From contig CBDFMZ010000001.1 in assembly GCA_965249865.1 (NCBI GenBank), positions 40,202 to 104,201 on the forward strand: 64,000 nt of DNA, read 5' to 3'. The position numbers and the translations under genes are program-made. The notes under the pieces were generated by a model. It did no database searches, was not told where the DNA came from, and was given only the letters and a program-made list of their open reading frames with translations. Shown here piece by piece: positions 3,814 to 52,670 of this stretch (the first letter of the stretch is position 1; every line of letters starts with the position of its first letter). This DNA is from Acidobacteriota bacterium (GTDB lineage: Bacteria; Acidobacteriota; UBA6911; RPQK01; CBDFMZ01).

Positions 3814-3879
3814 ACCGATCGGGACTACGACGACAAGACTACGTGTCGGTATTTCACAATGAAGACTTCCGAGGAACCT

Positions 3880-5908: not shown

Positions 5909-6303
5909 GAGAGTCAGCTCCACAGTACTCACGTGCAAGGACCAGCTGTTCCTCTTAACCACAAGACGACTAGGTAACACTTGTACACTATAACGACCCC
6001 ACTTCGAATTTAGTCTCCCCAACTTTATGAGACACTATGAGGAAGGGACAATTCATCAATAAGAGCTTCACGTCTTTCTGGGAGCGCACTATAATGTTTT
6101 GATAGTGATAATCTGATGATGCAGTCATTAATTGGTTGCACCAATATAGTAAATGTTTGCTGAAAGATCTGGCGAGACGAGATTAGGTAATGACGAGGAG
6201 GCGATGCAGTGGTTTGTCTGACTCGCCCCCGGTTGCCCGTTGAGCATGGAGTCATATCGATATTAATCTAAACTGGATTTTCACACTTTGAAGGAGGAGG
6301 ATC

Positions 6304-7614
6304 ATGGGACGCAACACTTACGGCCTCATGGCTGTGGATTGGGAAGAGCGGGTCAATTTCGAGCGACTTCGCAATGAGCGCTTGGCACGGGCCAAGAAGC
6401 TTCTGAAGGAATCGGAGCTGGGTGCATTGCTGTGCTTCGACATGAATAATGTTCGTTATATCACGGCCACCCATATAGGCACTTGGGCCGTAGACAAACT
6501 GGTTCGCTTCACTTTGTTGCCCCAGAACGATGAGCCGATCCTGTGGGACTTCGGCTCGGCAGCAAGACATCACACGCTCTATTGCCCGTGGTTAGGTGAT
6601 GGACGTTCTCGTGCCGGCATCTCCACTTTGCGGGGAGCGATGTCTCCCCACTCCGGCCAAGCTGAAGATGTAGCCCGCAAGATTCGAATTGAACTGGAAG
6701 AACGTGGTTTATTGAACCAGCCAATTGGGGTGGATGTGGTGGAACCACCGGTCTTGTTTGCCCTTCAAAAAGAGGGTATCCAAGTCTTAGACGGGCAACA
6801 GCTAATGCAGAACGCCCGGATGATTAAAACTCAGGACGAGATCACACTACTCAACACAGCCTGTATGATGGTCGATGCAGCTTACGAAGAACTTTACCGG
6901 ACCATGAGGCCCGGCATGCGGGAGAACGAATGTGTTGGTCTGGTGAACAAAGTATTGTACGACTTGGGGTCAGAACATGTGGAGGGTGTCAATGCGATCT
7001 CCGGTGAGCGTTGCAACCCACACCCTCACGTTTATACCGATCGTGTTCTACGACCGGGTGACCCGGCTTACTTCGACTTGATCCACGCCTATATGGGCTA
7101 TCGGACCTGCTATTACCGTACTTTTGCGATAGGCAGTGCCTCCCAGGCTCAGGTAGATGCTTATAAACGCTGTCGTGACTACCTAGATGCATCCCTTAGC
7201 CTGATCAAACCCGGGGCCACCACCGCGGAGGTAGTCAAGGTTTGGCCGAAGGCGGAAGAGTTTGGTTTTCCCAACGAAGAATCCTGCTTCGCGCTGCAGT
7301 ACGGCCATGGGGTAGGACTCTCCGTTTGGGAGAAACCAGTCTTCAGTCGAATGGTTTCGCTCGACCATCCCGAAGTTATCGAAGAGGGTATGGTGTTTGC
7401 CCTCGAGACTTTTTGGCCAGCAACGGATGGCTGGTCGGCGGCGAGAATCGAAGAAGAATTGGTGGTTACTCAGGACGGTTGTGATGTTATAACTCGCTTC
7501 CCGGCGGAGGAACTGATGGTAGCGGGTCGCCGTTACTACACCGCAGGGGGTCCTCTGAATACCACCCGTGAAATCCAGGCCCATTTGAATAGGCCGAAGG
7601 CCAACGAGCCTTAA
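6304..7614 (+). CDS. M24 (Xaa-Pro peptidase / creatinase) fold hydrolase with an altered metal site
   Basis: Creatinase-like N-domain plus pita-bread domain: FD...GYRTCYYRTF, GHGVG, ALET, RIEE; strong RBS. Confidence 0.85.
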   Translation: MGRNTYGLMAVDWEERVNFERLRNERLARAKKLLKESELGALLCFDMNNVRYITATHIGTWAVDKLVRFTLLPQNDEPILWDFGSAARHHTLYCPWLGDGRSRAGISTLRGAMSPHSGQAEDVARKIRIELEERGLLNQPIGVDVVEPPVLFALQKEGIQVLDGQQLMQNARMIKTQDEITLLNTACMMVDAAYEELYRTMRPGMRENECVGLVNKVLYDLGSEHVEGVNAISGERCNPHPHVYTDRVLRPGDPAYFDLIHAYMGYRTCYYRTFAIGSASQAQVDAYKRCRDYLDASLSLIKPGATTAEVVKVWPKAEEFGFPNEESCFALQYGHGVGLSVWEKPVFSRMVSLDHPEVIEEGMVFALETFWPATDGWSAARIEEELVVTQDGCDVITRFPAEELMVAGRRYYTAGGPLNTTREIQAHLNRPKANEP

Positions 7615-7908
7615 CGGCCGAGCCCAAACCGGGGGTGAAAAGGTCCAGTTCTGAGAGTTCGCTTGAGAATGCGATGCCTTGAAGGAGCCGGAACTCGAAA
7701 CGTAAAGCAAGTTTGCTCACAATCTCAGCGTGTTGACAGTAGTTCAACGAAACCAAGATCAAAGTGAGTCTTCCGAATCCAGTACCAGGCAACGCTCAAT
7801 GCGCGATTCTGAAGAGACCCTCTGGTTCTTGCCGCTAGCGGTAATCGAGGTCAACGGACCCGGCAGGAGACTGCCGTAGCGCCCGCAGTCACCAAAGGAG
7901 CTTAGGAT

Positions 7909-9210
7909 TTGCCAACAAACATTATAATGCCTGCGCTTGGAATGGCGCAGGAAACCGGAATAATTCTGAAATGGTTCAAGGCTGAAGGTGAGACAGTAAG
8001 CAAGGGAGAGCCCTTGATCGAGGTCGAGACGGACAAAATCGCGGTTGAGCTCGAAGCTCCCGCCTCAGGCCGACTGGCCAATGTGACTGCCTCGGTCGGT
8101 GACGAAGTGGCAGTTGGCGTGGTGATTGGTAAGATTCTGGCTCCGGGAGAACTGACATCGAAACCTCCTGAGCCAGTTTCAGCTCTTTCCGTTCAGCCGC
8201 CCGCACCGGATTCCAAGGCAAGTTCAACAACGGCAAAGGTTTCGGTCACCACCTCGGCACAGCGCAGCGCGGATGAGTGCGAAGTAGCCCTTGAACGGGC
8301 AAGGTCTCAGGAAGATTGTGTCGACAAAACGGACATGCTGGACTATTCGAACAAACAGTCGTCAGAAACATCTGCCAGCCCTAGACCGGGGCGCAGTCTA
8401 GCCTCACCAAAGGCTCGACGCCTGGCAGTTGAGCGCGGGATCGAGATTACAGAGATCGACGGGAGTGGACCGGCCGGCGCGGTGCTGGTTGCCGACATCT
8501 TGGGGGCGGGAAGAATGCTTACTCCAGTCCTCAAACCGCAGACCCTAACGCTGAGCCAGACCTGGCGAGTGATGGCTGAACGGACCACACAAAGCTGGAC
8601 TCATGTACCCCACTTCTATCTGCTCCGTGAGGTGAACGCGAGCCGCTTAATTATCTGGCGCGAAAAGGTCCAGAAACAACTCCCAGAGAAAATAAGTTAC
8701 ACCGATTTATTGCTGAAACTGGTAGCAGTCTCCTTGAGGAGACATCCGCAAGTCAATTCCCAGTGGCAGGATGGGACAATCGCCCTCCTTGACGAAGTCA
8801 ATGTGGGACTGGCAGTGGCCATCGAGGAGGGACTTATTGTCCCAGTTATTGGCCGGACCGACGAGCTCAGTCTGAGCGAGATTGCTGCACGTCGACAAGA
8901 GCTCGTTCGCGCCGCCCAGTCCGGAATGCTGCGGCTAGAGGACATCAGCGGCGGAACCTTTACTCTCAGCAACCTAGGTATGTACGAGGTAGATGCCTTC
9001 AGTGCCATTGTTAACCCGCCGCAGGCCGCCATCCTGGCCGTAGGCCGCATCGCCCAGCGTGTCGTCCCTGTGAACGGCCAGCCCGCTATCCAACCAATGA
9101 TGATGCTTACCCTGTCCTGTGATCACCGTGTAGTGGATGGAGCACGAGGAGCACAATTTTTACAAACCTTGGTCGATCAGATAGAGGAACCGCCAGGGGT
9201 TTTTGACTGA
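7909..9210 (+). CDS. Dihydrolipoamide acyltransferase E2 (AcoC/PdhC-like)
   Basis: Lipoyl domain ETDK, E3-binding ASPKARRLA, catalytic DHRVVDG; TTG start with RBS AAGGAG. Confidence 0.92.
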   Translation: MPTNIIMPALGMAQETGIILKWFKAEGETVSKGEPLIEVETDKIAVELEAPASGRLANVTASVGDEVAVGVVIGKILAPGELTSKPPEPVSALSVQPPAPDSKASSTTAKVSVTTSAQRSADECEVALERARSQEDCVDKTDMLDYSNKQSSETSASPRPGRSLASPKARRLAVERGIEITEIDGSGPAGAVLVADILGAGRMLTPVLKPQTLTLSQTWRVMAERTTQSWTHVPHFYLLREVNASRLIIWREKVQKQLPEKISYTDLLLKLVAVSLRRHPQVNSQWQDGTIALLDEVNVGLAVAIEEGLIVPVIGRTDELSLSEIAARRQELVRAAQSGMLRLEDISGGTFTLSNLGMYEVDAFSAIVNPPQAAILAVGRIAQRVVPVNGQPAIQPMMMLTLSCDHRVVDGARGAQFLQTLVDQIEEPPGVFD

Positions 9211-29268: not shown

Positions 29269-30333
29269 TCAACCTTCTGCAAAGTACAACTTCCAGGCCT
29301 TACTGAAGAGAAGATTGACTTTTCCTTCTCGAACAAGCAAGAAACAGACGGCCAAATCCCTGGATTCAGCCCAGGGGATCCCTTTTTCCGGTCCCATCAC
29401 GTAAAGAGCTGTGGAAAGAATGTCAGCCACCAGAGCACTAGCATTCCATACCGTTACCGAGCCCTGGAACTTAGCCGGCAGGCCGCTGCGTGGATCCAAT
29501 ATGTGTCCTAGCCGTCCATCGGAAGCTTGCAGGTCTCGCTCTGACCCTCCGCTTGTTGCCAACGAACCACCTGAAAGTTTTACCCGTAATAGTGGCTGAT
29601 CGCGTAGGATCGGATGAGCTACCTCGACTTGCCACAATTTCGCTTGTGGCAAGCCATAGGCTATCACCTGGCCTCCTAAATCAACCAGCCAAGCAGTCGA
29701 GTCATTGGCGGCCGCACAGCCACGAACCCGATCCAACGCCTCTCCCTTACCAAAAGCTCCCACGTCGATCGTCACCTCGCTTGTCCGTGTAATCCGGCAC
29801 TGAGAAGCGTCATACTCGAAATGCTGCGCACCAGAACGCTTTCGTGCGGACTGCAGGACTTCTGGCGATGGTCTCCGTCCGCCTTCGCGTAGTCCCCATG
29901 CGTTGACAAGGGGTCCAATAGCAGGATCAAAGGCGGCATCTGTTACCCGCTGCCAAAAAAGAAGATCTCCGAACAGCCGGCAAAAAGACCGTCCCACTGA
30001 GAACGGGATTCCGACCGGTCGTTGGTTCAGACGACTAACCAGGCTGCTGGGACGCCAGGTACTCAGCTGCTCCTCGGTGTCATCGAGGATGCGGACAAAG
30101 GTCTCAAGCTGCTGCAGAGCGCCCTGCCGTTCTGCCGAGTGAGTGATCAGGGTACATAGAGTCCCCATGAGGTAAACTTGGCGGGTCACCTCGACCCCTA
30201 CTCGTGGAGGTGACCCGCCAGTAACGGGAAAGACTAAGACAACGAAAAGGGTCAATAGAACAAAAATCGAAGCCAGTCGTCCAGAACCAGAGGGGATTTG
30301 ACGGCCACTGCGTCGTAAACCAACCTTTCTCAT
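29269..30333 (-). CDS. apbE: FAD:protein FMN transferase (ApbE/Ftp)
   Basis: MGT, FDPAIGPL..AWG, GAFGKG, DLGG, ATSG, GHILDPRSG, ADILSTAL. Confidence 0.92.
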   Translation of the reverse strand: MRKVGLRRSGRQIPSGSGRLASIFVLLTLFVVLVFPVTGGSPPRVGVEVTRQVYLMGTLCTLITHSAERQGALQQLETFVRILDDTEEQLSTWRPSSLVSRLNQRPVGIPFSVGRSFCRLFGDLLFWQRVTDAAFDPAIGPLVNAWGLREGGRRPSPEVLQSARKRSGAQHFEYDASQCRITRTSEVTIDVGAFGKGEALDRVRGCAAANDSTAWLVDLGGQVIAYGLPQAKLWQVEVAHPILRDQPLLRVKLSGGSLATSGGSERDLQASDGRLGHILDPRSGLPAKFQGSVTVWNASALVADILSTALYVMGPEKGIPWAESRDLAVCFLLVREGKVNLLFSKAWKLYFAEG

Positions 30334-30803
30334 ACTGCGTTGGCAATGCGAACTTTTTGCTCCTGTTTCACGCGATTCTTTCTTAAGAGATGGATGCTTA
30401 TGACCTGGTGTAAGAGGTAGGTAATCAGAAAGATCCCGCCGGTTAGAAGGTGTAACAGCAGGCTCACACGATAGACCCAGGTATCCGCTGCCACCTGTAG
30501 GAGGTAGCCTGATAGTACCATCGGAGCAAAACAGATAAGGGCAGCCAGTCCAGACCGGCGATTGGAGTTGGTTCTATCGGAAAGCTTTTGGATGACATGG
30601 GAATAAATCACACCTGCTACGATAAAGATCAAAAGAGGAGACACCATAATGTGTAGGTCCAGGACGAAGGACTGTAATGGATGGTTGACAAGACTGAACG
30701 GGTCACCGTCCTCCATCAGGTATTTCATCCAAAAGTAGAGGACTCCGGTGACTGACACAAGAATGAGCAGAACATGAAAAGACCACTTTTCCCAGCGACT
30801 CAC
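30330..30803 (-). CDS. Four-TM His-rich membrane protein, putative cytochrome b (DUF4405-like)
   Basis: Two similar TM hairpins (SVTG...LH...H and LSG...LH...H) with His51/His69 and His118/His132. Confidence 0.55.
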   Translation of the reverse strand: MSRWEKWSFHVLLILVSVTGVLYFWMKYLMEDGDPFSLVNHPLQSFVLDLHIMVSPLLIFIVAGVIYSHVIQKLSDRTNSNRRSGLAALICFAPMVLSGYLLQVAADTWVYRVSLLLHLLTGGIFLITYLLHQVISIHLLRKNRVKQEQKVRIANAV

Positions 30804-31363
30804 GGCACCCTCTCTGAATGTCTGCGCAACACCCAGTCAACTGCCAGCACTCGCCTGACGGCTTGATTGGTAGCCCTGGCTGTTAGTGTGGCACCGGCTA
30901 TAGACCGGATGCTGCGCTGCAGGTGAAGATCGTTACTGAGTGTTTTGCCGCGGTACTGGCCGTACCAACTGGGTGAAGCCAGATATTCAGCTGGTTCCAA
31001 GAAAGCAGTGGCTTCGATGCGTTTCACCTTCCCTTCTTCATCCAGGCAAATCAGCAGACTTTGTTTTTTGGACCGAACTATGTGAGTGTCCACATAGGCT
31101 CGACCGACGCTCTTGCTACCAATGACTGCCGAATAGCGTGCTATTAGAGCGCTGGGAACGTCGACTTTGGCCAGTAACTCCACCTGCTGGCGTTGCTGGT
31201 CGGTCAAAAACAGCCTCTCCAGCTTAATTGCTGCCCCCGGAAAGGCCGCAGTAAGGGCTTCCTCCCGGCTTAGCAAAGCATTAGCCGTGCCCTCAAGGCA
31301 AGAGAACAAAAGAACAAAGTAAGCAATGCGCCAGCTACGACTCTTCAAACCTTCCACCAACAA
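30800..31363 (-). CDS. Exported FMN-binding domain protein (ApbE substrate)
   Basis: Signal peptide; C-terminal IRSIAGATLT flavinylation-like [ST]GA[ST] motif; F.EP.EY...W..Q..GK pattern. Confidence 0.75.
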   Translation of the reverse strand: MLVEGLKSRSWRIAYFVLLFSCLEGTANALLSREEALTAAFPGAAIKLERLFLTDQQRQQVELLAKVDVPSALIARYSAVIGSKSVGRAYVDTHIVRSKKQSLLICLDEEGKVKRIEATAFLEPAEYLASPSWYGQYRGKTLSNDLHLQRSIRSIAGATLTARATNQAVRRVLAVDWVLRRHSERVP

Positions 31364-31376
31364 ATTCTCTCCTCAT

Positions 31377-32864
31377 TCAAAATGCATAACCCAAAGCGAT
31401 GTTGTACTGATTAAGCCCTGTGGTCGCTTCGTTTCGAGTCCACTGATAATCGGACTTCAGCACGATGTTGTAAATCGGTCGTAGTTCTAAACCCAGTGAA
31501 TGGAAAATGCCGTTTCGAATAGGATTGCCGAAAAATCCCGGGGGAACTTCATCTTGGGTATTGAGTCTTTCGAACCGATAATAAGGGGTCAATCCGATTC
31601 TCTCCGTGTACTGTGATAGTACGTTGTAACCGAACTGTACGTAACCTCCCTGCAGGCTTTCCCCGATCGAGTCCTGACCGATCAGGCTGCGCGCCGCGTT
31701 CAGTTCGGCCACATCATCGAGGGTGGCTCGTGCGTACAAACCTCGAACGTCAAAACCGCGCACTTGTACCTGAGCGTGCAGCTCCCCAATCACGGTCCTA
31801 ACCTTTACATCCGTTCCATTTTGTTCAAACTGATTCTGACCGGAGTTCCCTGTGTAGACAGAACCTCCAAAAAACACGCCGGGTGTGGGAGACACATCTA
31901 GCCGACCTACAAAGGCCAGATCAGAAGCTTTCGCGTTTGAACCTTTCTGACGGCCACCCCGCAAACCATCGGAACTGAAACCACCAGCATCCAGACCATT
32001 AATGAGGTAGACCCGATAGTTAAACATTCCGGTCGAGCCAAGGACACCGAAGCCGTTTTCTCGCCAGGTCGTGGGGATGATCCGCCTCTCTGTCTGAGGT
32101 CTCAAAGTTCCCAAAAGTACGGTCGGCTCGTGAAACTCATTAGTAATACCCATCGGAACCAATAACAATCCTCCACGCAGAGTCAGGTGTGGACTCGCCC
32201 GATAATCGAGATAAGCAAACTCCAGTGAAGCTTCGTTGGCATGTTCTAACTCAATCTCGGAATTGAAAACAAACTTGTCGTTAAACCGATAACCGGTGTA
32301 GATAATGGCCCTCAGAAAATCTAGCTGAGAGCTTTTTTCAATGGCGTCTCCCCTTCCATTCACGGCATCGAAGTTTTGGTAGACCATCTCACCATAACCC
32401 GCAATAGAAACCCCGGTTGACTTGCGGTAGGTTGAGGCCGCCGATGGTGATAAACCTAAAGCTCTCGCTTGGTCAAAAGTCACCTCGATCTCGGGTTCGC
32501 CACTGCGCAGTTTCTCAACTTCTTCGGCAAGCACACCCAATTGCCGGCGAAGTTCTTCGATTTCCATTGTCTTCTCCGTCTCAGCGTGGTGCTTAGCAAA
32601 ACTTTTCTCCTCTTGGGAAGCCAACCGGCTCATCTCCAGACTTTTCAAGCGCTCTTCAAACTCCTGGATCTTGCTCCGCATCGTCTGTTTTTCGTCGGCA
32701 GCCCCGGCAGTTGTCCCCTCTGCCACCAATCCAAAAATTAATGCAAAAAACGCGAGCTTTGATGTTGCCATTCGAACAGTTCGGATCAATGATTTCTTCA
32801 TACTTCTGTCCATCACGGGTCTCCCCGCCAAACCAAGAAGGTGCCGTTGACTCTCTCGAGCCAT
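31377..32864 (-). CDS. Outer-membrane beta-barrel/porin (OprO/P-like) with an N-terminal coiled coil
   Basis: Signal peptide, coiled coil, GYGE.VY.NF, NSEIELEH, EFAYLDY, terminal aromatic LGYAF (BAM signal). The true start may be about 60 nt downstream. Confidence 0.75.
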   Translation of the reverse strand: MARESQRHLLGLAGRPVMDRSMKKSLIRTVRMATSKLAFFALIFGLVAEGTTAGAADEKQTMRSKIQEFEERLKSLEMSRLASQEEKSFAKHHAETEKTMEIEELRRQLGVLAEEVEKLRSGEPEIEVTFDQARALGLSPSAASTYRKSTGVSIAGYGEMVYQNFDAVNGRGDAIEKSSQLDFLRAIIYTGYRFNDKFVFNSEIELEHANEASLEFAYLDYRASPHLTLRGGLLLVPMGITNEFHEPTVLLGTLRPQTERRIIPTTWRENGFGVLGSTGMFNYRVYLINGLDAGGFSSDGLRGGRQKGSNAKASDLAFVGRLDVSPTPGVFFGGSVYTGNSGQNQFEQNGTDVKVRTVIGELHAQVQVRGFDVRGLYARATLDDVAELNAARSLIGQDSIGESLQGGYVQFGYNVLSQYTERIGLTPYYRFERLNTQDEVPPGFFGNPIRNGIFHSLGLELRPIYNIVLKSDYQWTRNEATTGLNQYNIALGYAF

Positions 32865-34620: not shown

Positions 34621-35217
34621 TCAGGCGTAGAAAGGAGTTTCCCCAGTGGTGTGATCGGTGGTGTCGACGACCTCGGCGACTTCGGGGATCAGTTCTTTGA
34701 TCCTAGCTTCGACTCCCTGTTTCAAGGTCACGTCAACCATGCCACAACCATGACATCCACCGCCGAAGCTGATATGGACCTTATTGTCGCTCACACCCAT
34801 CAACTGCATCACCCCCCCATGAGCCGCCACGGCGGGATTCAGTTCAGTATCAATCAACTGTTGTACCCTCTCAGCAATGGAGCCAGCTAAGTCTCCCCGC
34901 GGCCCCTTACCCAAAGTGGGAGTCTCGGGTACGTTGGGATTTGTGAACTTGAAGCCGCTTTTCAAAATCCCTTCCTCAAAATCGACAGTAGATCCGTTCA
35001 GATTCTTCGCACTGTCCGGATCCATTACCACCTCAAACTCACCCGCATTCTCAACCACGTCGTCGGCTCTTTTCTCTTCCTGGCGGATCATTTTCATCCC
35101 AAAGACAAATGCCGCCGTACCATTGGTCTTGGCTTCCAAACGCAGCATAGACGGCGAATCCTGGCTCTTCAAAACAGCCAGGATTTGCCGTTTAGCTTCT
35201 TCCGTTATTGTAATCAT
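34621..35217 (-). CDS. nfuA: Fe/S biogenesis protein NfuA
   Basis: A-type carrier N-domain plus Nfu domain LNPAVAAHGG and GGGCHGCGMVDVTLKQGVE. Confidence 0.9.
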   Translation of the reverse strand: MITITEEAKRQILAVLKSQDSPSMLRLEAKTNGTAAFVFGMKMIRQEEKRADDVVENAGEFEVVMDPDSAKNLNGSTVDFEEGILKSGFKFTNPNVPETPTLGKGPRGDLAGSIAERVQQLIDTELNPAVAAHGGVMQLMGVSDNKVHISFGGGCHGCGMVDVTLKQGVEARIKELIPEVAEVVDTTDHTTGETPFYA

Positions 35218-35763: not shown

Positions 35764-37779
35764 ATGAACATAATGCCAGCAACTGCATCCAGCACCGCCT
35801 GGAAGTGTTTCGACACCGTCGTTTGTTTTGCAGCAGGGAAGGTTTTCGACTGCATCCAGTTATTCAATCAATATCGGCCTAATGCTTCTTTCACTCCAAA
35901 GTGGTCCGATAAACCACTATTGAAATCATGGGAGAAATCTAAGCCTAACCTGGGATTTCCTCGTCAGACAGACTCGCTTTGCCCCAAGTGCGTCGTTGAA
36001 ACTCGCGAAAGGATTCTGAAGGGTGAGGAAGACTATCGCATTTTGATCAATGAAAAGGTTGGTGAGATCAAAGCTGAAATAATAGAGCGCAACGGAGAGA
36101 TCTGGATGGTCAAGGACTGTCCACAGCACGGGAGATTTGAAGATCTCATGGCCATCGATTCAGATTTTCTGCATTGGATCGAAGCCAACTTTCCGGGTCG
36201 GGACATTGCTGCCCACAACGACACGGACCTTCACAATCACGGGTCTAGTACCATTCGACACGGAAGAGGTTCAGTGCTCACCGTTGATCTGACCAATCGT
36301 TGCAACATGATGTGTGATCCTTGTTTTATGGATGCTAACCAGGTCGGATTTGTACACGAACTCGAGTGGGAGGAAATCAAGGAGATATTGGATAACTCTT
36401 TGAAAATTAAGCCCAGGCGCCAGATGTCAGTCCAATTTTCAGGGGGTGAGCCGACGCTCTCTCCCCACTTCTTTCGTGCCCTCAAATACGCTCGTAAGAT
36501 CGGCTTCAACAGCGTCCAGTGCGCGACCAACGGCATCGAGTTCGCCAAGAGTAAGGAGTTTACTCGCAAGGCGTTCGAAGCGGGTCTTCGTTATACCTAT
36601 CTGCAATTTGATGGAATCGGGAATGATGCGAACAGCCATCGTAACGTCGGGAACCTGTTTGACGTAAAACTGCGAGCCATTAATAACATTCACGAAGCAG
36701 GTATCGAAATCGTGCTTGTCATCACGCTGGTTAACGACGTGAACAATGATCAAGTAGGTCCCATTATCCGCTTTGCAATGGACAACCCGAAGAAAATCGC
36801 CTTCATCTCCTTCCAGCCAGTTTCTTTTACCGGAAGAGATGAGGCCATCACTGAAGAGCGACGTCTTCGCCAGCGCTATACCCTCTCCCATATGGCCCAA
36901 GATGTGAAGAAGCAGACCGGAATCACTGAGCCAACCCGCGACTGGTTTCCACTTTCATTAATGGGTGCATTTGCAGATTTCGCTGATCTGGTGCACGGCC
37001 CAAACGCTGACTGGGGGCAAGTGAGCTGCGGTTGCCATCCGAACTGTGGTGTGGGAACAGCCCTGATGATTGACAAGGAAACCAAAGAAGCATCACCGGT
37101 TCCCCAATTCTTGAACATTCCGGGACTCGTCAAAGATATGCAAAAGATTACCGATGCAGCCCGCAGTAAATCTTTCTCAAACTTTTTAATGGGCATGGCC
37201 TTGTTGAAGAACTACAAACCCTTTCAGTCTCCTTCCGGCTTGCGCCTATTCGACATCCTAAAAAAGTTTGACAAGAGTTTTGGTCTGACTGGACGGGACT
37301 ATGGTGTGACAGCCAAAGAACGTCGCCAGGATCGTTGGAATTTTCTATTCATTGCCGGTATGTGGTTTCAGGACCTGTTCAATTATGACTTCCGTCGTAC
37401 CGAGATGTGCATCATTCCTTACGCAACTCAGGAAGGTGAGATTTCCTTCTGCGCTTATAACACTGGCCACGGTTGGCGCAACATCATCGAACACATGCAC
37501 ATGAATGCCACTGTCGCGAAATGGTATGAAGCGCACGGCCGCCATGATATTTTTGCTGGCGGCAAGAACGTAAATTTGCAAAGTTATGAAAACTCACTAA
37601 AGATCGACGCTAAGGATGCTGCTCGAGTTAAGCAAGAGAGCAACCTGCCTCAGACGGCTCGTGATGAGAAGCTACTGCGCAGAGAAGCTGCTAAGGAGGC
37701 TTCTCAAGTACACCAGTATTACGAAGAAATGGTCCTGAAGAAGAAGAGAAAAAACGATTTGGTTCAGCTGGGAATGTGA
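35764..37779 (+). CDS. Radical SAM enzyme, tetraether lipid synthase (Tes / GDGT-MAS, MJ0619 family) homolog
   Basis: Rubredoxin-like CPKC...CPQH, TNRCNMMCDPCF (CX3CX2C), QFSGGEPT, ATNG, YLQFDG, FQPVSFTGR, auxiliary CHPNCG and C....TQEGEISFCAYN. Confidence 0.85.
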   Translation: MNIMPATASSTAWKCFDTVVCFAAGKVFDCIQLFNQYRPNASFTPKWSDKPLLKSWEKSKPNLGFPRQTDSLCPKCVVETRERILKGEEDYRILINEKVGEIKAEIIERNGEIWMVKDCPQHGRFEDLMAIDSDFLHWIEANFPGRDIAAHNDTDLHNHGSSTIRHGRGSVLTVDLTNRCNMMCDPCFMDANQVGFVHELEWEEIKEILDNSLKIKPRRQMSVQFSGGEPTLSPHFFRALKYARKIGFNSVQCATNGIEFAKSKEFTRKAFEAGLRYTYLQFDGIGNDANSHRNVGNLFDVKLRAINNIHEAGIEIVLVITLVNDVNNDQVGPIIRFAMDNPKKIAFISFQPVSFTGRDEAITEERRLRQRYTLSHMAQDVKKQTGITEPTRDWFPLSLMGAFADFADLVHGPNADWGQVSCGCHPNCGVGTALMIDKETKEASPVPQFLNIPGLVKDMQKITDAARSKSFSNFLMGMALLKNYKPFQSPSGLRLFDILKKFDKSFGLTGRDYGVTAKERRQDRWNFLFIAGMWFQDLFNYDFRRTEMCIIPYATQEGEISFCAYNTGHGWRNIIEHMHMNATVAKWYEAHGRHDIFAGGKNVNLQSYENSLKIDAKDAARVKQESNLPQTARDEKLLRREAAKEASQVHQYYEEMVLKKKRKNDLVQLGM

Positions 37780-37789
37780 GTTGCTAGCC

Positions 37790-37866
37790 GCCCGTCGTAA
37801 GAATCGCGTGATGTGAGCCTTCGTGTGGCAAACGGGACGGGCTTCGTTTTGGTGTTGCTTCTTTTC
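37790..37866 (+). terminator. Possible terminator hairpin after the Tes-like gene
   Basis: GCCCGTC (37790-37796) / GACGGGC (37836-37842) stem followed by a T-rich tract; the loop is long. Confidence 0.3.
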
Positions 37867-38004
37867 TACGCTCCGACCGTGTCGATTCACCTTAAGACTT
37901 GACGCGAATAACGTGGATCTCGGAGACACTGGAGCGACTCAATTTCCTAGGCCCGTTCTCCAGAACGGTCCCTTTCCACTTTAGCCGCCCGTCGTGACTG
38001 TTCA

Positions 38005-38157
38005 CAAGCGGCCTGGGTTCGGATGCCAAACGTACCAATTGAGACAATACCGAGTCATCGTCGAGGAAACGCTACACCGCAGATGGGACCATGCTGCTAC
38101 CCGAAGGGTGCCCGAGGATTGTGGCCGATGGCCGGCGTTGCTCGTCGGCGCCAATGC
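38005..38157 (+). repeat. Copy B of the dispersed, diverged intergenic repeat
   Basis: About 78% identity over 140 aligned nt to the reverse complement of 35344-35499. Confidence 0.8.
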
Positions 38158-38300
38158 GAGGGTATCGATCCCTCCTCGTGCCTGGCCAGAGACTCCATTA
38201 GACTTTTACTACGAACTGTTAGGCTAGCTCTGGCCACAAACGTCATGGAATTTCGAACCATCGTACTCAATGATCGGTTTAGAAGAAGGGGCCGAATGTC

Positions 38301-38642
38301 ATGACACAGCTGGTTAATAAGAAGTGTGTGCCCTGTCGAGGCGGAGTACCCCCTCTGACCACTGAACAGATCAGACCATTACTGCGAGAGGTAAATAATT
38401 GGAAAGCAGTCAACCATCACCATCTAGAGAGAGAGTTCACATTCCCGGACTTCAAGAAGGCACTTGACTTCGTCAACCGCGTTGGGGAGATCGCCGAGCA
38501 GGAGGACCACCACCCGGACATTTACCTGGCCTGGGGGAAGGTCGAGATCACAATCTGGACACACAAGATCGACGGACTCACGCAGAGCGACTTTATTTTT
38601 GCGGCAAAGGTCGATCAGACCTGGATGACCCAAAAAGAGTGA
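38301..38642 (+). CDS. Pterin-4-alpha-carbinolamine dehydratase
   Basis: CVPCRGG, FTFPDFKKALDFVNRVG..AE..DHHPDI, WTHKIDGLT..DFIFAAK. Confidence 0.93.
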   Translation: MTQLVNKKCVPCRGGVPPLTTEQIRPLLREVNNWKAVNHHHLEREFTFPDFKKALDFVNRVGEIAEQEDHHPDIYLAWGKVEITIWTHKIDGLTQSDFIFAAKVDQTWMTQKE

Positions 38643-49336: not shown

Positions 49337-50725
49337 TCAAGCAAACAGCTCGCTGATCTCTCCAAACTCCATGAAACCCTTGGGTGAAATGTTTTCGATG
49401 TACTCAAAAGGCCTTCCGGAGAAGGTTTGTGTGATCTTTTTGGTCCAATCGATTCCCATCGCCGAATACATCGTCACCAAAACATCTTCCGGGTAGATAG
49501 AGCGGTTTGCATGCCATCCCGGGTCAATGATCTTCGCTCCCGTCTCCTCCTCGGTGCTCCCCAAGATCTGCCCTCCCCTGACACCGGCGCCGGCAAAAAG
49601 AACCATCGAGGCATAGGGGTAGTGATCACGTCCCTTATTTTCGTTCAATCCTCCTACGGTTCGTCCAAACTCTCCCATACAGGTAATCAGCACCTTGTCG
49701 AGGAGGCGTCTGCCCTGCTCGTCTGTTCTCGACCCTAAATCATCCAGAAGGTTAGACAGCGCAGAGTCGAGGTCTCGACACAGGGTATACTGGTTAGTCT
49801 TGGCCGTCTTATCGTAGGCCTTGCCGTGCAAATCCCAGCCGCCTTGCGATATCAGGATAAACTTGTTTCCCGCATTTTCCTGAACGATGTTTCTGGCAAG
49901 CAGGCAGGCATCACCCACGGTCGAGGAACCGTAACGCTCGCTTTCACTTGAATCGACCTTAAACACTTTAGAAACTCTGGGATGGCCCAACAGGGAATAA
50001 GCGCTTTCATACTTTTGGTTCAGATCACTGAAAATGCGACCACGACGGGGATCCTGCCCCCTCCATGACCCATCCAGATCCTGTAATATTTCCCGCCGTC
50101 TTTGGAACCGAAATTTTTCTTCCTCTGCCACCAAAAAAGGCGGCAGTTCCGAGGTGGTCATGGCCATCGGACCATAGGTCGCCGGCAGCACCCCCGAGCC
50201 CACCAATCTCAGTCCGGCACTGTTGACCACATTCATAGAGATGAAGGGAGGCAAAAAGTCCGACTCTTTCCGCTGGCTAGCAGACTCATAGGCCATCAGA
50301 GCTCCCACAGAAGGAATTTCTTTCACCCGCGCGGGACTGAGAATTCGCCCCGCCTGCACATAATAGCTGCCCCGGGTATGGTCAATTTCCCACGCCTCCA
50401 AAGACCGGACAATGGCGTACTGGTCGGTCCGAGCCGAAAGATTCGGCATCAATCCCACTGGCATCTGGAGTCCAGGTTTAACCGTTCTGATGTCAAAATC
50501 CTCGGGAGTCCATGGCCCCTCTTTCAGGTCAAAGGTGTCGACTTGGCTCGGCCCGCCCGCCAGGAAGAGTAAAATACACACTTCAGCTCCTCCCCGGGGC
50601 TGTACTTTAGCCGCAGCCCGGACATTTTTCGGCTTCAAGATAGGAAGCAAGTGATAGCCTGCCACCCCAACGCTGCCTACCATAAAGAACTCTCGACGGG
50701 TTAGCTCCGGTATTGGTATTGCCAT
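49337..50725 (-). CDS. DUF1501 domain protein (Tat-exported)
   Basis: TRREFF Tat-like motif, LAGGPSQVDTFD, GWDLH, MGEFGRT, GRDH. Confidence 0.88.
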   Translation of the reverse strand: MAIPIPELTRREFFMVGSVGVAGYHLLPILKPKNVRAAAKVQPRGGAEVCILLFLAGGPSQVDTFDLKEGPWTPEDFDIRTVKPGLQMPVGLMPNLSARTDQYAIVRSLEAWEIDHTRGSYYVQAGRILSPARVKEIPSVGALMAYESASQRKESDFLPPFISMNVVNSAGLRLVGSGVLPATYGPMAMTTSELPPFLVAEEEKFRFQRRREILQDLDGSWRGQDPRRGRIFSDLNQKYESAYSLLGHPRVSKVFKVDSSESERYGSSTVGDACLLARNIVQENAGNKFILISQGGWDLHGKAYDKTAKTNQYTLCRDLDSALSNLLDDLGSRTDEQGRRLLDKVLITCMGEFGRTVGGLNENKGRDHYPYASMVLFAGAGVRGGQILGSTEEETGAKIIDPGWHANRSIYPEDVLVTMYSAMGIDWTKKITQTFSGRPFEYIENISPKGFMEFGEISELFA

Positions 50726-50768
50726 AAAGACCTCTCTCCACTGGCACTGCGGTTTAGTACTCAGCACA

Positions 50769-52670
50769 TTAATAGTTGACTACAAACTCTAACTTGTTAA
50801 TGAGAGCCCACTGGATATCTTCTGCTCCTTTGTCCCGGTAGCGCTCGAGATAGCCAACTGACTTTTCAGTCTCCTCCCGAGTTGGGAACCGTGAAAGCGT
50901 CGACAAGTAAATATTCTCCACTAATTGCTCATTACTCAAAGGAGGAGTCTGGCTCAGCAGAGTGTTGATTCGACTCCCCTCGGTGCTAGCTAGCACTTTG
51001 TTCTTGACCACCTCACTGTTCAACATCAATGAAGCCTGAACCACCGAAGGCGTGGTTTCTGCGGCGCCGCTTTTTCGATCACTTCGACCGAAAAAGTCCA
51101 GAAAACGCTTGGTACCCGGCTCCAGTTTATCAAAAGAAGGATCATAAGTCTCCATGATATAGCTGACTTTTTTGTCCGTCCCGGCCACCGATACCTCAGG
51201 AAAAACGTTCGTGGCTTTACTGATGGCATCATAGATCTCCTCTGCGGACAAACGACGTGCAAGTTTGCGAGCAAAGTAGCGATCATAATCCGGCTTCCAG
51301 TCGCTTTCGACACGGGAGGAGAGTTGATAGGCACTGGATTGGGTGATCACTTTCATCAGGTAGCGCAAGTCAAAACCATGTTTCTGGAAATCCTTGGCCA
51401 GTTCCTCTAACAACTCCGGATGTGAAGGCTGGATAGTCCAGGGAGCGGGTGGGGGATTCTGGGGGTCCTGGCGATCCAGGTCCCACGCAAAGGGAGGATC
51501 AACAATCCCTACCGTCATAAAATGTGACCAGAACAAGTTTACCGTCGCCTTGGCAAACTGGAGATCAGAAGTGAGCATTCGGGCCAACTCAACCCTCAGA
51601 TTTGCACCCGACGCAGGCCGCTCTTGAGTAAGCACAAACTGGGGATAGACATCGGCTTTCTTGTTCCGGGCGATTCGCAGCACACTGGGTGAGTCCATGC
51701 TATAACCGTTTCCACCCCCCTGCCAGTGGGACTCCGGCCTCAATGGAGGGCCTTCCAACAAAGCAAATTCCTGAGTGTCGTGCGTAGGCCTGAAAATTCG
51801 AATGTTGCCGAAAAAAGCCGCCTGGCGCCAAAACTCTACACGTTTTTTTTGGGTCAGCCACAGGTTGATTTTCTCTAAATGCCCGGCACCGTCGTGGCAG
51901 GAAATACATTCTAAATTCAGTCCAAGGAAAAGCTTCGTCGCATTCACTGCCATCTCATCGCAGCTATCCTCGTGCATCACGTGACCGTCGAACAAGCCGT
52001 CGGCGTAACTCCGAATCAGGAAATTGGCAGCGCCCCCCACATTCGTACTCACGGTCGTCGCCGTGAGCATGTCCCGAACCATATAATCGTAAGCTATGTT
52101 GTGTTTTAAGTTGTGATAGATATACTGGCGAAACGCGTTGCGGCCTTCCATCCCCTGGATTGGACCATTGTCAAAGAGATCACCAAACCAGTAGCTCCAC
52201 CGAGTTAAAAACGGCTCTTCAACTAACCAGGGACCCTTGGTCGACTCGCAGTGGAGGTTTCCCTGACAGTCCACGTCCGGATACTCAAGACCCAACAAGT
52301 GATCAATGAGCCGGTCTCGTTTATTTGGATCATTGTCAGCCACAAACTCACGGACTCTTTCGTCGTCGGGTATCCGACCCCACAGGTCCAGATAGACCCT
52401 ACGTATGAACTCGGTATGCGTGGATAAACCCGCGTGTGGAATGCCCTCGGCCGCAATCTTGTCGAAAATGTAGTCATCGATGAAATTCTTTCGCTCTACG
52501 GTAAGACGAGTGGTGGAGGGTAGACCCACAGCAACTTCGTCTGTCAGTTGTGTGGCGGAAGGACGACTTTCCTCGGTAGGTTCTGAATGCTTCTCATCGA
52601 GAGAAAACGGCGCTGGGATCGCCAAGGCGGCGGCGCCTACTAAGCACACAATGAGAAGAAAGCGCTTCAT
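50769..52670 (-). CDS. DUF1549 + DUF1553 (PSCyt2/PSD1) domain protein
   Basis: NFIDDYI, EFIRRVYLDL.G.IP, FLGLNLECISCHD, VN.FW..F...GIV.P, SHPELL..LA..F, RRLSAE, LSRFPT. Confidence 0.9.
   Translation of the reverse strand: MKRFLLIVCLVGAAALAIPAPFSLDEKHSEPTEESRPSATQLTDEVAVGLPSTTRLTVERKNFIDDYIFDKIAAEGIPHAGLSTHTEFIRRVYLDLWGRIPDDERVREFVADNDPNKRDRLIDHLLGLEYPDVDCQGNLHCESTKGPWLVEEPFLTRWSYWFGDLFDNGPIQGMEGRNAFRQYIYHNLKHNIAYDYMVRDMLTATTVSTNVGGAANFLIRSYADGLFDGHVMHEDSCDEMAVNATKLFLGLNLECISCHDGAGHLEKINLWLTQKKRVEFWRQAAFFGNIRIFRPTHDTQEFALLEGPPLRPESHWQGGGNGYSMDSPSVLRIARNKKADVYPQFVLTQERPASGANLRVELARMLTSDLQFAKATVNLFWSHFMTVGIVDPPFAWDLDRQDPQNPPPAPWTIQPSHPELLEELAKDFQKHGFDLRYLMKVITQSSAYQLSSRVESDWKPDYDRYFARKLARRLSAEEIYDAISKATNVFPEVSVAGTDKKVSYIMETYDPSFDKLEPGTKRFLDFFGRSDRKSGAAETTPSVVQASLMLNSEVVKNKVLASTEGSRINTLLSQTPPLSNEQLVENIYLSTLSRFPTREETEKSVGYLERYRDKGAEDIQWALINKLEFVVNY

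What the first reader, a model, noticed from the sequence alone, without database searches (positions are those of the whole stretch)
35764..37779. Bacterial homolog of archaeal tetraether lipid synthase (Tes/GDGT-MAS)
Seen: all hallmark motifs of the MJ0619 family are present, namely the N-terminal CPKC...CPQH metal site, the CX3CX2C radical SAM motif, CHPNCG and C...FCAYN auxiliary cluster ligands, plus N- and C-terminal extensions (671 aa). Established: archaeal Tes/GDGT-MAS joins lipid tails by C-C bond formation, and Acidobacteria are the main suspected producers of branched GDGTs and iso-diabolic-acid lipids. The role of bacterial Tes homologs is unresolved. Inference: this organism may make membrane-spanning lipids, which matters for the source of brGDGT paleoclimate proxies.
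Basis: partly seen in the sequence, partly recalled or inferred. Interest (0 to 1): 0.75.

Follow-up and report, generated by a model that had tools for sequence, protein, structure and literature searches.

The report
Divergent bacterial Tes-like radical SAM enzyme
This acidobacterial gene encodes a real but divergent relative of the archaeal enzyme that joins lipid tails into membrane-spanning lipids; it belongs to a very common, untested soil-bacterial branch that lacks one of the archaeal enzyme's iron-sulfur clusters, so a role in making brGDGT-type lipids is plausible but unproven and has already been proposed in print.

Summary
The ORF at 35764-37779 (+) is real. It is 671 aa; the likelier start is 35773, giving 668 aa. 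It is clearly homologous to GDGT-MAS/Tes: E = 1.5e-67 to PDB 7TOL, and an AlphaFold model matches 7TOM/7TOL with TM 0.87 over the whole crystal structure.

The claim that all hallmark motifs are present is only partly right. The rubredoxin-like site, the radical SAM CX3CX2C motif, the three [Fe4S4]C cysteines, Met439 and Tyr459 are conserved. The CX3CX2CX2H motif of the [Fe4S4]N cluster is absent.

The protein scores 331 bits on NCBIfam's Tes equivalog model (cutoff 450) and is 32% identical to MJ0619. A 100%-bootstrap split places it in a bacterial "long-form" clade apart from validated Tes. That clade is large and 70-85% identical across Acidobacteriota and MAGs labelled Gemmatimonadota. It probably includes S. 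usitatus Acid_2410.

No lipid genes are nearby, and no neighbourhood is conserved.

Most likely function: radical tail-to-tail C-C coupling of iso-branched lipids. This is inferred, not shown. Zeng 2022 and Halamka 2022 already published the hypothesis, and I found no experimental test of any bacterial Tes homolog. It is a new member of a known, uncharacterised kind, of moderate interest.

The parts
35764..37779 (+). Tes/GDGT-MAS-superfamily radical SAM gene, 'long-form' bacterial clade (671 aa; the likelier start is 35773, giving 668 aa)
   Evidence: ORF; Pfam domains; NCBIfam Tes model 331 bits over residues 68-579; PDB 7TOL E = 1.5e-67; AlphaFold pLDDT 86.2 with Foldseek TM 0.87 to 7TOM; start-codon reasoning
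35764..35964 (+). N-terminal extension (residues 1-67), absent from MJ0619; modelled as a long helix (residues 6-35) followed by the conserved W-x-D-K-P-L-L-K-S-W segment
   Evidence: Lies outside the Tes HMM match; conserved across the clade; helix 6-35 has pLDDT above 90; no transmembrane segment
35980..36129 (+). Rubredoxin-like mononuclear iron site, C73-x2-C76 ... C119-x2-H122, with about 22 extra residues between the two halves compared with MJ0619
   Evidence: Pfam Zn_ribbon_HMPTM; C76, C119 and H122 invariant and C73 at 90% or more in alignment A2; site definition from PMC9433317
36214..36270 (+). Cysteine-free, His-rich loop (residues ~151-169) occupying the place of the [Fe4S4]N CX3CX2CX2H motif of GDGT-MAS
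   Evidence: Alignment with MJ0619 and canonical Tes; H151, H157 and H159 invariant in the clade; the only internal low-confidence stretch of the model
36289..36777 (+). Radical SAM core (residues 176-338) with the CX3CX2C motif C180/C184/C187 at 36301-36324; the SAM-contact motif QPVSFTGR follows at residues 351-358
   Evidence: Pfam PF04055 E = 1.7e-19; SAM-binding residues of GDGT-MAS conserved except R210 -> N294
37027..37461 (+). C-terminal auxiliary-cluster and lipid-pocket domain carrying the [Fe4S4]C ligands C428, C549 and C563, plus M533 (= labile Met439) and Y553 (= Tyr459)
   Evidence: Ligand mapping; intact in 227 of 229 clade members; only 21% identical to MJ0619 in this domain
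37501..37779 (+). C-terminal extension (residues 580-671), charged, with a long helix at 632-658
   Evidence: Lies outside the Tes HMM match; composition; model
34621..35217 (-). Divergently transcribed NfuA-like Fe-S carrier gene (Fe-S_biosyn + NifU domains); a possible but weakly supported functional partner
   Evidence: Pfam; adjacent in only 10 of 82 related loci, so the link is tentative

Best explanation
The gene encodes a soluble or peripheral radical SAM enzyme of the Tes/GDGT-MAS superfamily. It belongs to a bacterial 'long-form' clade that keeps three of the four metal sites of the archaeal enzyme: the rubredoxin-like iron, the radical SAM [4Fe-4S] cluster and the C-terminal [Fe4S4]C cluster with its labile Met ligand. 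It has lost the surface [Fe4S4]N cluster and gained N- and C-terminal extensions.

The most likely mechanism, by analogy with GDGT-MAS, runs as follows. SAM is cleaved reductively at the radical SAM cluster. The 5'-deoxyadenosyl radical abstracts a hydrogen from the terminal methyl of a lipid tail bound in a hydrophobic tunnel. The substrate radical is parked as an S-C adduct on [Fe4S4]C. A second SAM-derived radical on a second tail attacks this adduct and forms a C(sp3)-C(sp3) bond.

The probable substrates are iso-branched (iso-C15-type) acyl or alkyl glycerolipids, whose isopropyl terminus is chemically the same as that of phytanyl. The product would be an iso-diabolic-acid-type membrane-spanning lipid, a precursor or core of brGDGTs.

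Shown: family, fold, metal-site inventory, clade placement and distribution. Inferred: substrate, product and physiological role.
For: - Full-length homology to GDGT-MAS: PDB 7TOL E = 1.5e-67 over residues 101-575, and one stretch covering positions 1-482 of the 486-position NCBIfam Tes model.
- An AlphaFold model (pLDDT 86.2, pTM 0.87) matches 7TOM/7TOL with target-normalised TM 0.87 over about 545 columns. All other PDB hits cover only the radical SAM core.
- The catalytic apparatus is conserved: C180/C184/C187; C428/C549/C563 plus M533 (= Met439); Y553 (= Tyr459); SAM contacts F188, G228, Y279, D283, V319, T321, Q351, S354, T356 and R358.
- These sites are intact in 227 of 229 clade members, and mean column identity is 77% across the alignment of 26 clade proteins, so the protein is under strong purifying selection.
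- GDGT-MAS binds bacterial ester phospholipids without head-group specificity, and the S-C adduct on [Fe4S4]C is its demonstrated intermediate (PMC9433317).
- The clade is concentrated in Acidobacteriota lineages known for iso-diabolic acid or brGDGT: Terriglobia including Solibacteraceae, and Blastocatellia/Pyrinomonadaceae. The brGDGT producer S. usitatus has a 714-aa, 30%-identity Tes homolog (Acid_2410) that fits this clade's length and divergence.
Against: - It fails the curated Tes equivalog cutoff (331 vs 450 bits). It is 32% identical to MJ0619 and separated from validated Tes by a 100%-bootstrap split.
- The [Fe4S4]N cluster is missing, and R210 of the SAM site is not conserved.
- The lipid-pocket domain is only 21% identical to MJ0619, and the pocket could not be inspected because no coordinates are exposed.
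- No lipid-biosynthesis gene is adjacent, here or in 82 related loci. The recurring neighbours are lineage-specific housekeeping genes.
- The sister subclade, which includes Terriglobus roseus from the iso-diabolic-acid-rich subdivision 1 (SD1), has lost the [Fe4S4]C cysteines in 117 of 117 members. Tes homologs were reported in only 3 of 14 acidobacteria that make iso-diabolic acid (PMC13159169). Tes-family presence therefore does not track iso-diabolic acid production well.
- Close homologs also occur in MAGs labelled Gemmatimonadota, Eisenbacteria and Vulcanimicrobiota, phyla with no known membrane-spanning lipids.
- No bacterial Tes homolog has been tested (PMC11868695).
Confidence: 0.5

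Rival explanations
1. It uses the same fold and the same radical, cluster-adduct chemistry on lipids but catalyses a different reaction from the first tail-to-tail coupling. Candidates are the second coupling (trialkyl GTGT-type to dialkyl GDGT-type), intramolecular macrocyclisation of one glycerolipid, coupling of ester-linked rather than ether-linked substrates, or coupling of other hydrophobic chains. Labour would be divided with a canonical Tes paralog where both exist, as in S. usitatus (Acid_5929 plus Acid_2410).
For: - S. usitatus carries both a canonical homolog (545 aa, 40% identity) and a long one (714 aa, 30% identity).
- The lipid-pocket domain has diverged to 21% identity while the radical SAM core stays at 44%.
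- GDGT-MAS itself makes both macrocyclic archaeol and GDGT (PMC9433317).
- The clade has its own conserved N- and C-terminal extensions and a His-rich loop.
Against: - No direct evidence points to any particular alternative reaction.
- Whether this window's genome has a canonical Tes paralog is unknown, since only 64 kb is available.
- The terminal-carbon chemistry is the only activity shown for the superfamily.
Confidence: 0.25
2. It acts on a non-lipid substrate, for example a cofactor such as a pterin (the old annotation of MJ0619 as '7,8-dihydro-6-hydroxymethylpterin dimethyltransferase'), or a peptide.
For: - A pterin-4a-carbinolamine dehydratase gene lies downstream at 38301-38642, as it does in the nearest MAGs.
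- JGI labels many clade members as the pterin dimethyltransferase.
- The protein falls outside the Tes equivalog.
Against: - The PCD neighbour is present in only 6 of 82 loci.
- The pterin methylase assignment of MJ0619 could not be reproduced, and the structure argues against it (PMC9433317).
- The whole GDGT-MAS fold, including the C-terminal domain, is retained.
- The [Fe4S4]C/Met/Tyr set that surrounds the lipid terminus is conserved.
Confidence: 0.1
3. It is a decaying or non-catalytic relic of a Tes gene.
For: One metallocluster has been lost. The sister Terriglobus-type clade has lost the catalytic auxiliary cluster as well.
Against: - The 671-codon frame is intact.
- Identity is 70-85% across classes and phyla, with 77% mean column identity.
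- 227 of 229 clade members keep every remaining ligand.
- The model is confident.
Confidence: 0.03

Closest known systems
GDGT-MAS / Tes (M. jannaschii MJ0619, PDB 7TOL/7TOM; M. acetivorans MA_1486)
   Same: - Overall fold (TM 0.87).
- Rubredoxin-like site, radical SAM cluster, [Fe4S4]C ligands, Met439, Tyr459 and most SAM contacts.
- No transmembrane segment.
   Different: - 32% identity, with a separate clade across a 100%-bootstrap split.
- 331 bits against the 450-bit equivalog cutoff.
- No [Fe4S4]N cluster.
- A 22-residue insertion in the rubredoxin domain, a 67-aa N-terminal extension and a 92-aa C-terminal extension.
- The lipid-pocket domain is only 21% identical.
- Bacterial host with fatty-acid lipids.
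S. usitatus Ellin6076 Acid_2410 (Q025C7, 714 aa), the second, distant Tes homolog of a cultured brGDGT producer
   Same: - Its length class and its divergence from archaeal Tes (30% identity, E = 4e-62 to MA_1486; Halamka 2022 Table S6) match the window clade.
- Solibacteraceae members of the clade are 700-713 aa and about 70% identical to the window protein.
   Different: Membership of Acid_2410 in this clade was not verified directly: its sequence was not retrievable and it was not named among the listed hits. It too is uncharacterised.
Canonical bacterial Tes homologs (S. usitatus Acid_5929, 545 aa; Ca. Koribacter versatilis; representatives P0158 and P0166)
   Same: Same superfamily, bacterial, and proposed for brGDGT synthesis (PMC8941075).
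   Different: - They keep the CX3CX2CX2H [Fe4S4]N motif.
- They score 557-593 bits on the Tes model.
- They are 40-45% identical to archaeal Tes and group with MJ0619, not with the window protein.
Terriglobus roseus WP_014786616.1-type proteins (P0129 clade)
   Same: Nearest sister subclade: 41% identity, the same N-terminal extension, and no [Fe4S4]N motif.
   Different: They have lost the three [Fe4S4]C cysteines (0 of 117 intact) and Tyr459. The window protein keeps all of them.
Mss, the bacterial membrane-spanning lipid synthase of Thermotoga maritima and Thermoanaerobacter ethanolicus
   Same: A radical SAM enzyme shown to couple fatty-acid tails into diabolic acids (PMC13159169). This is the reaction proposed here.
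   Different: - It is a different family. No Tes homolog was detected by BLAST in the genomes of the Mss-carrying species, and no mss homolog was found in acidobacterial genomes.
- It has so far been detected only in genomes of anaerobic bacteria.
- No Mss sequence was available for direct comparison.
TrsS radical SAM (seleno)protein (NCBIfam NF045646)
   Same: Second-best profile hit. It shares the N-terminal zinc-ribbon and radical SAM core region (219 bits, residues 101-386).
   Different: The score is far below its 490-bit cutoff, and the match does not extend through the C-terminal domain.

Membership tests
Tes / GDGT-MAS (tetraether lipid synthase, NCBIfam NF045702 equivalog) | Radical SAM CX3CX2C cluster motif | tested here: met
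   C180, C184 and C187; Pfam PF04055 E = 1.7e-19
Tes / GDGT-MAS (tetraether lipid synthase, NCBIfam NF045702 equivalog) | N-terminal rubredoxin-like CX2C...CX2H iron site | tested here: met
   C73, C76, C119 and H122; Pfam Zn_ribbon_HMPTM E = 1.8e-14. The spacer is 42 residues rather than 20.
Tes / GDGT-MAS (tetraether lipid synthase, NCBIfam NF045702 equivalog) | N-terminal auxiliary [Fe4S4]N cluster (CX3CX2C plus His; MJ0619 C73, C77, C80) | tested here: not met
   No cysteine lies between H122 and C180. The aligned positions read gap/H/S/R. The motif is absent in 0 of 229 clade members and present in 17 of the canonical representatives.
Tes / GDGT-MAS (tetraether lipid synthase, NCBIfam NF045702 equivalog) | C-terminal auxiliary [Fe4S4]C cluster: three Cys plus labile Met439, with conserved Tyr459 | tested here: met
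   C428, C549, C563, M533 and Y553; intact in 227 of 229 clade members
Tes / GDGT-MAS (tetraether lipid synthase, NCBIfam NF045702 equivalog) | Profile score at or above the curated equivalog cutoff (450 bits) | tested here: not met
   331 bits. Canonical representatives score 474-593 bits, with three borderline members at 414-447; long-clade members score 171-299 bits.
Tes / GDGT-MAS (tetraether lipid synthase, NCBIfam NF045702 equivalog) | Phylogenetic placement within the clade that contains experimentally validated enzymes | tested here: not met
   Neighbour-joining tree on 492 columns: a 100%-bootstrap split separates the window clade from the group containing MJ0619. The tree is midpoint-rooted only and no maximum-likelihood tree was possible.
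Tes / GDGT-MAS (tetraether lipid synthase, NCBIfam NF045702 equivalog) | Four-domain GDGT-MAS fold, including the C-terminal cluster and lipid-pocket domain | tested here: met
   AlphaFold pLDDT 86.2; Foldseek against 7TOM E = 4.9e-36, TM(target) 0.87, 547 columns. The N-cluster region is the only part that is poorly modelled.
Tes / GDGT-MAS (tetraether lipid synthase, NCBIfam NF045702 equivalog) | Hydrophobic lipid tunnels leading to the 5'-dA site and to [Fe4S4]C | tested here: inconclusive
   Model coordinates are not exposed. The amphipathicity of C-terminal helices 452-465 and 495-506 is high, but no higher than that of radical SAM core helices.
Tes / GDGT-MAS (tetraether lipid synthase, NCBIfam NF045702 equivalog) | Tail-to-tail C(sp3)-C(sp3) coupling activity on glycerolipids | not testable with these tools
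   This needs expression or an in vitro assay. No bacterial Tes homolog has been assayed, according to PMC11868695.
Mss (bacterial membrane-spanning lipid synthase) | Sequence homology to T. maritima or T. ethanolicus Mss | not tested
   No Mss sequence was available. The literature reports no mss homologs in acidobacterial genomes and no Tes homologs in the Mss-carrying organisms (PMC13159169).
TrsS radical SAM (seleno)protein (NF045646) | Profile score at or above the 490-bit cutoff | tested here: not met
   219 bits, partial coverage

The most novel reading that the evidence does not exclude
The 'long-form' clade is intact in [Fe4S4]C, lacks [Fe4S4]N, carries N- and C-terminal extensions, and is 70-85% identical across soil Acidobacteriota and neighbouring phyla. 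It, rather than canonical Tes or Mss, could be the long-sought tail-coupling synthase for iso-diabolic-acid and brGDGT lipids in aerobic soil bacteria. It would work with two [4Fe-4S] clusters instead of three. If so, it would be a specific gene marker for brGDGT producers. The cluster-less Terriglobus-type sister clade would then mark a separate functional shift.
Probability: 0.3. Interest if true: 0.8.

Novelty: new member of a known kind. Interest (0 to 1): 0.4.

Why it matters
brGDGT distributions are widely used as palaeo-temperature and pH proxies, yet the organisms and enzymes that build their membrane-spanning chains are still not settled (PMC13274423). Tes-family genes in Acidobacteria are one of two candidate routes; Mss is the other.

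This gene is one of thousands of near-identical orthologs, so it adds no new kind of candidate. The useful outcome here is a sharper definition of what should be tested. Bacterial 'Tes homologs' are not one group, and this analysis separates three:
- a canonical type with all four metal sites;
- the long form found here, which lacks [Fe4S4]N;
- a Terriglobus-type that has also lost the catalytic [Fe4S4]C cysteines.

Surveys that count 'Tes homologs' by BLAST thresholds mix these three groups, which may blur correlations with lipid data.

Tried and rejected
- **Single-sequence AlphaFold model:** pLDDT 39.6, unusable. Replaced by the model built on a 35-sequence alignment.
- **Exact look-up of the window protein's own contig:** nothing on record.
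- **Gene-neighbourhood inference:** the window's neighbours recur in at most 10 of 82 related loci. De novo clustering of all neighbouring ORFs found only lineage-specific housekeeping sets: surE-pcm-dedA in Pyrinomonadaceae, and queG plus an unknown 407-aa protein in gp2/Acidiferrales. I therefore made no operon-based functional call.
- **Pterin link through the downstream PCD gene:** rejected, since it appears in only 6 of 82 loci and the HMPTM annotation is discredited.
- **Supplementary tables:** those of Zeng 2022 and Sahonero-Canavesi 2022 that list Tes homologs per strain were not held or did not contain the names.
- **Helix amphipathicity as a proxy for a lipid pocket:** it did not discriminate.
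- **Promoter and terminator scans:** no more sites than in shuffled sequence.
- **First tree attempt:** timed out and was redone with vectorised distances.
- **Model coordinates:** not available for pocket analysis.
Full report
**Observation**

The ORF listing shows one ORF at 35764..37779 on the + strand, 671 aa. The identical database protein is called at 668 aa. The AAGGAA Shine-Dalgarno-like element sits directly against 35764 and is better spaced for the ATG at 35773, so 35773 is the likelier start.

Pfam finds Radical_SAM (residues 176-338, E = 1.7e-19) and the HMPTM zinc ribbon (65-130, E = 1.8e-14). The best solved structure by sequence is GDGT-MAS, 7TOL, at E = 1.5e-67 over residues 101-575; the next hit, MoaA, is at 1.9e-08. 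This is not a chance resemblance.

The GDGT-MAS structure paper (PMC9433317) defines four metal sites:
- a rubredoxin-like iron (C9, C12, C33, H36);
- an N-terminal auxiliary [Fe4S4]N cluster (C73, C77, C80 plus a histidine);
- the radical SAM cluster;
- a C-terminal [Fe4S4]C cluster with a labile Met439, next to the strictly conserved Tyr459.

I rebuilt MJ0619 residues 15-480 from the alignment. I aligned it with the window protein, 8 close homologs and 25 full-length representatives from an exhaustive search.

The window protein keeps the rubredoxin-like site, the radical SAM cysteines, the [Fe4S4]C ligands (C428 = MJ C338, C549 = C455, C563 = C470), M533 (= Met439) and Y553 (= Tyr459). It has no cysteine at all where the CX3CX2CX2H [Fe4S4]N motif lies. 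A conserved His-rich loop, HNDxxLHNHGSSTI(R/K)HGRG, takes its place. 'All hallmark motifs present' is therefore only partly true.

Most SAM-contact residues of GDGT-MAS are conserved (F188, G228, Y279, D283, V319, T321, Q351, S354, T356, R358). The exception is R210, which is N294 here.

**Family placement**

On NCBIfam the Tes equivalog model is the top hit, covering residues 68-579 in one stretch, but at 331 bits against a curated cutoff of 450. TrsS is second at 219 bits against 490.

Representatives across the family fall into two groups. The canonical group scores about 474-593 bits (P0158, P0166, P0170), with borderline members at 414-447. The 'long' group scores 171-299 bits (P0121, P0129, P0137, P0146).

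A neighbour-joining tree (492 columns, 100 bootstraps) gives a 100%-supported split. On one side are the window protein, its close homologs and P0121, P0125, P0129, P0137 and P0181. On the other is the group that contains MJ0619. The window protein is 32% identical to MJ0619 overall. By region the identity is 44% in the radical SAM core, 43% in the rubredoxin part, 10% in the former N-cluster domain and 21% in the C-terminal cluster and lipid-pocket domain. The tree is midpoint-rooted, so I can state a separate clade but not its polarity.

**Structure**

A single-sequence AlphaFold run was useless (pLDDT 39.6). With a 35-sequence alignment (A2) the model reached pLDDT 86.2 and pTM 0.87. The only weak internal stretch is about 150-170, exactly where the N-cluster loop used to be. 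The N-terminal extension is modelled confidently as a long helix (residues 6-35), and the C-terminal extension contains a helix at 632-658.

Foldseek against the PDB returns 7TOM and 7TOL first (E = 4.9e-36, target-normalised TM 0.87, about 545 aligned columns). Every other hit (MoaA, viperin, NifB, HydE, BioB and others) covers only the radical SAM core. The protein has no transmembrane segment.

Model coordinates are not exposed, so I could not test the hydrophobic tunnel directly. A helix-amphipathicity proxy did not discriminate.

**How common it is, and where**

More than 8000 database proteins match. The top 120 are 74-85% identical, and the named ones come from Acidobacteriota MAGs. In one-genome-per-species contigs, at least 594 stretches encode a relative. 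Of the 80 best (69-80% identity), about 68 are Acidobacteriota:
- Terriglobia, including Solibacteraceae, Sulfopaludibacter, Acidiferrales, Versatilivorator and gp2;
- Blastocatellia, Pyrinomonadaceae, Chloracidobacterium and Aridibacter;
- gp5 and gp18.

Six are labelled Gemmatimonadota, with single or double cases labelled Eisenbacteria, Vulcanimicrobiota (Ca. Cybelea), Acidimicrobiia, Saccharimonadales and Clostridia. Some of these labels may be binning errors.

The closest contigs (85% identity) are syntenic with the window over at least 20 kb and are Acidobacteriota MAGs, so the source organism is an uncultured acidobacterium.

A ligand census of all retrieved proteins shows that 227 of 229 clade members keep every remaining metal ligand plus Met439 and Tyr459, and none of the 229 has the N-cluster motif. 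This is a functional enzyme under strong constraint, not a relic.

**Sister clade**

P0129 is Terriglobus roseus DSM 18391 WP_014786616.1, from subdivision 1 (SD1). It is 41% identical to the window protein. It and 116 relatives have replaced the three [Fe4S4]C cysteines (patterns such as SSS, RSC, HSC and ASS) and Tyr459 (to Val).

SD1 Acidobacteriaceae are the classic producers of abundant iso-diabolic acid (PMC13274423). Tes homologs were reported in only 3 of 14 iso-diabolic-acid-producing acidobacteria (PMC13159169). Presence of a 'Tes homolog' is therefore not a reliable predictor of membrane-spanning lipids in this phylum. This is the main evidence against a simple reading.

**Genomic context**

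The Tes-like gene is the only ORF in the 64-kb window with a CX3CX2C motif. Its neighbours are an NfuA-like Fe-S carrier, divergently transcribed (34621-35217), and a pterin-4a-carbinolamine dehydratase downstream (38301-38642). Nothing in the window resembles Ger/PlsA, Elb, Grs or other lipid-tailoring genes.

Across 82 related loci, NfuA is adjacent in 10 and PCD in 6. De novo clustering of all neighbouring ORFs found nothing shared by more than 22 loci, and those sets are lineage-specific housekeeping genes. Context therefore neither supports nor contradicts a lipid role.

The NfuA adjacency is suggestive for a multi-cluster radical SAM enzyme whose auxiliary cluster takes part in chemistry. 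From general knowledge, NfuA re-supplies the sacrificial cluster of lipoyl synthase. The adjacency is too poorly conserved to lean on.

**Literature**

Zeng et al. 2022 reported 456 bacterial Tes homologs, including acidobacterial ones, and proposed a role in brGDGT synthesis. They noted two similarity classes: Koribacter at 42% and Solibacter at 40%, against E. aggregans at 32% with E = 4e-61 (PMC8941075).

Halamka et al. 2022 list two homologs in the brGDGT producer S. usitatus: Acid_5929 (545 aa, 40.2%, 1.4e-139) and Acid_2410 (714 aa, 30.1%, 4.2e-62). They propose that one or both couple iso-C15 diethers (PMC10087280).

The window protein matches the second class in length and divergence. 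Solibacteraceae members of its clade are 700-713 aa. I could not retrieve Acid_2410 itself, so this link is inferred.

Sahonero-Canavesi et al. 2022 validated a different radical SAM family, Mss, in Thermotoga and Thermoanaerobacter, and found no mss homologs in Acidobacteria. Papers from 2025-2026 still state that the activity of bacterial Tes homologs is unconfirmed (PMC11868695; PMC13459092).

**Mechanism**

For GDGT-MAS, the following is shown. Two SAM molecules are used per C-C bond. Hydrogen is abstracted from the terminal carbon of a lipid tail held in a hydrophobic tunnel. The first radical is stored as an S-C adduct on [Fe4S4]C. The enzyme binds bacterial ester phospholipids without head-group specificity. 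The roles of the rubredoxin iron and [Fe4S4]N are unknown.

Every element tied to that chemistry is conserved here, and the missing element is the one without an assigned role. The isopropyl terminus of iso-C15 chains is chemically the same as that of phytanyl, a point made in PMC8941075.

The best-supported explanation is therefore tail-to-tail coupling of iso-branched glycerolipids into iso-diabolic-acid-type membrane-spanning lipids (confidence about 0.5). The main rival is a related but different lipid reaction, with labour divided with a canonical paralog (about 0.25). A non-lipid substrate (about 0.1) and a relic (about 0.03) are much less likely.

**Verdict**

The sequence observation is largely correct, but one hallmark cluster motif is absent. 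The protein is a Tes-superfamily member but fails three membership tests for Tes proper: the cutoff score, the clade placement and the [Fe4S4]N motif. It probably works like Tes, but that is inference.

It is one ortholog among thousands of an already noticed, uncharacterised bacterial group, with no informative context in this window. I rate it a new member of a known kind, with interest 0.4.

The added value is the three-way split of bacterial 'Tes homologs': canonical, long-form lacking [Fe4S4]N, and Terriglobus-type lacking [Fe4S4]C as well. Gene-based surveys of brGDGT producers should respect this split.

Noticed in passing
related proteins P0129 and P0389-P0507 (Terriglobus roseus WP_014786616.1 and relatives): The sister subclade of the window protein has systematically replaced the three [Fe4S4]C cysteine ligands (patterns such as SSS, RSC, HSC, ASS) and Tyr459 (to Val), while keeping the radical SAM and rubredoxin-like sites: 0 of 117 are intact. 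These proteins cannot use the GDGT-MAS cluster-adduct mechanism as it is known, yet they occur in an iso-diabolic-acid-rich lineage.
   Followed up: partly
window 36214-36270 (residues ~151-169): A conserved His-rich loop, HNDxxLHNHGSSTI(R/K)HGRG, with H151, H157 and H159 invariant in the clade, replaces the [Fe4S4]N motif. It is the only internal stretch the model places with low confidence. Whether it binds a metal is unknown.
   Followed up: partly
window 3859-9210 (+): E1-alpha, E1-beta and E2 (lipoyl acyltransferase) genes of a 2-oxoacid dehydrogenase complex, with an M24 peptidase gene (6304-7614) between E1-beta and E2. If this is a branched-chain keto-acid dehydrogenase it would supply primers for iso-fatty acids, but its specificity was not tested.
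   Followed up: no
window 29269-32864 (-): An ApbE flavin transferase gene, an FMN_bind-domain gene and two genes without Pfam hits (157 and 495 aa) form a co-oriented cluster that is conserved in the two closest MAG contigs (L001, L002). Its function is unknown.
   Followed up: no
window 37780-38300: The spacer between the Tes-like gene and the PCD gene is about 520 nt here but about 100 nt in the syntenic contigs L001 and L002. It holds a 93-aa ORF (38023-38304) with no Pfam hit and no counterpart in 82 loci, and a weak terminator-like hairpin at 37833-37851.
   Followed up: no
loci L005-L010, L015, L030, L057, L012, L047, L065: Proteins 69-75% identical to the window protein sit in MAGs labelled Gemmatimonadota, Eisenbacteria, Vulcanimicrobiota (Ca. 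Cybelea), Acidimicrobiia, Saccharimonadales and Clostridia. This is as close as the match between acidobacterial classes. It points to horizontal transfer, extreme constraint or binning errors.
   Followed up: no
protein P0125 (601 aa, 47% identical to the window protein): The most basal member of the long clade scores 414 bits on the Tes model, between the two groups. It lacks the N-cluster motif but ends in a Cys-rich tail (…CGSKEERYETAAAGESCGSGCGCH) that could bind another metal centre.
   Followed up: no
window 49337-52670 (-): A DUF1501 gene next to a PSCyt2/DUF1553 (PSD1) gene, a pair of unknown function.
   Followed up: no
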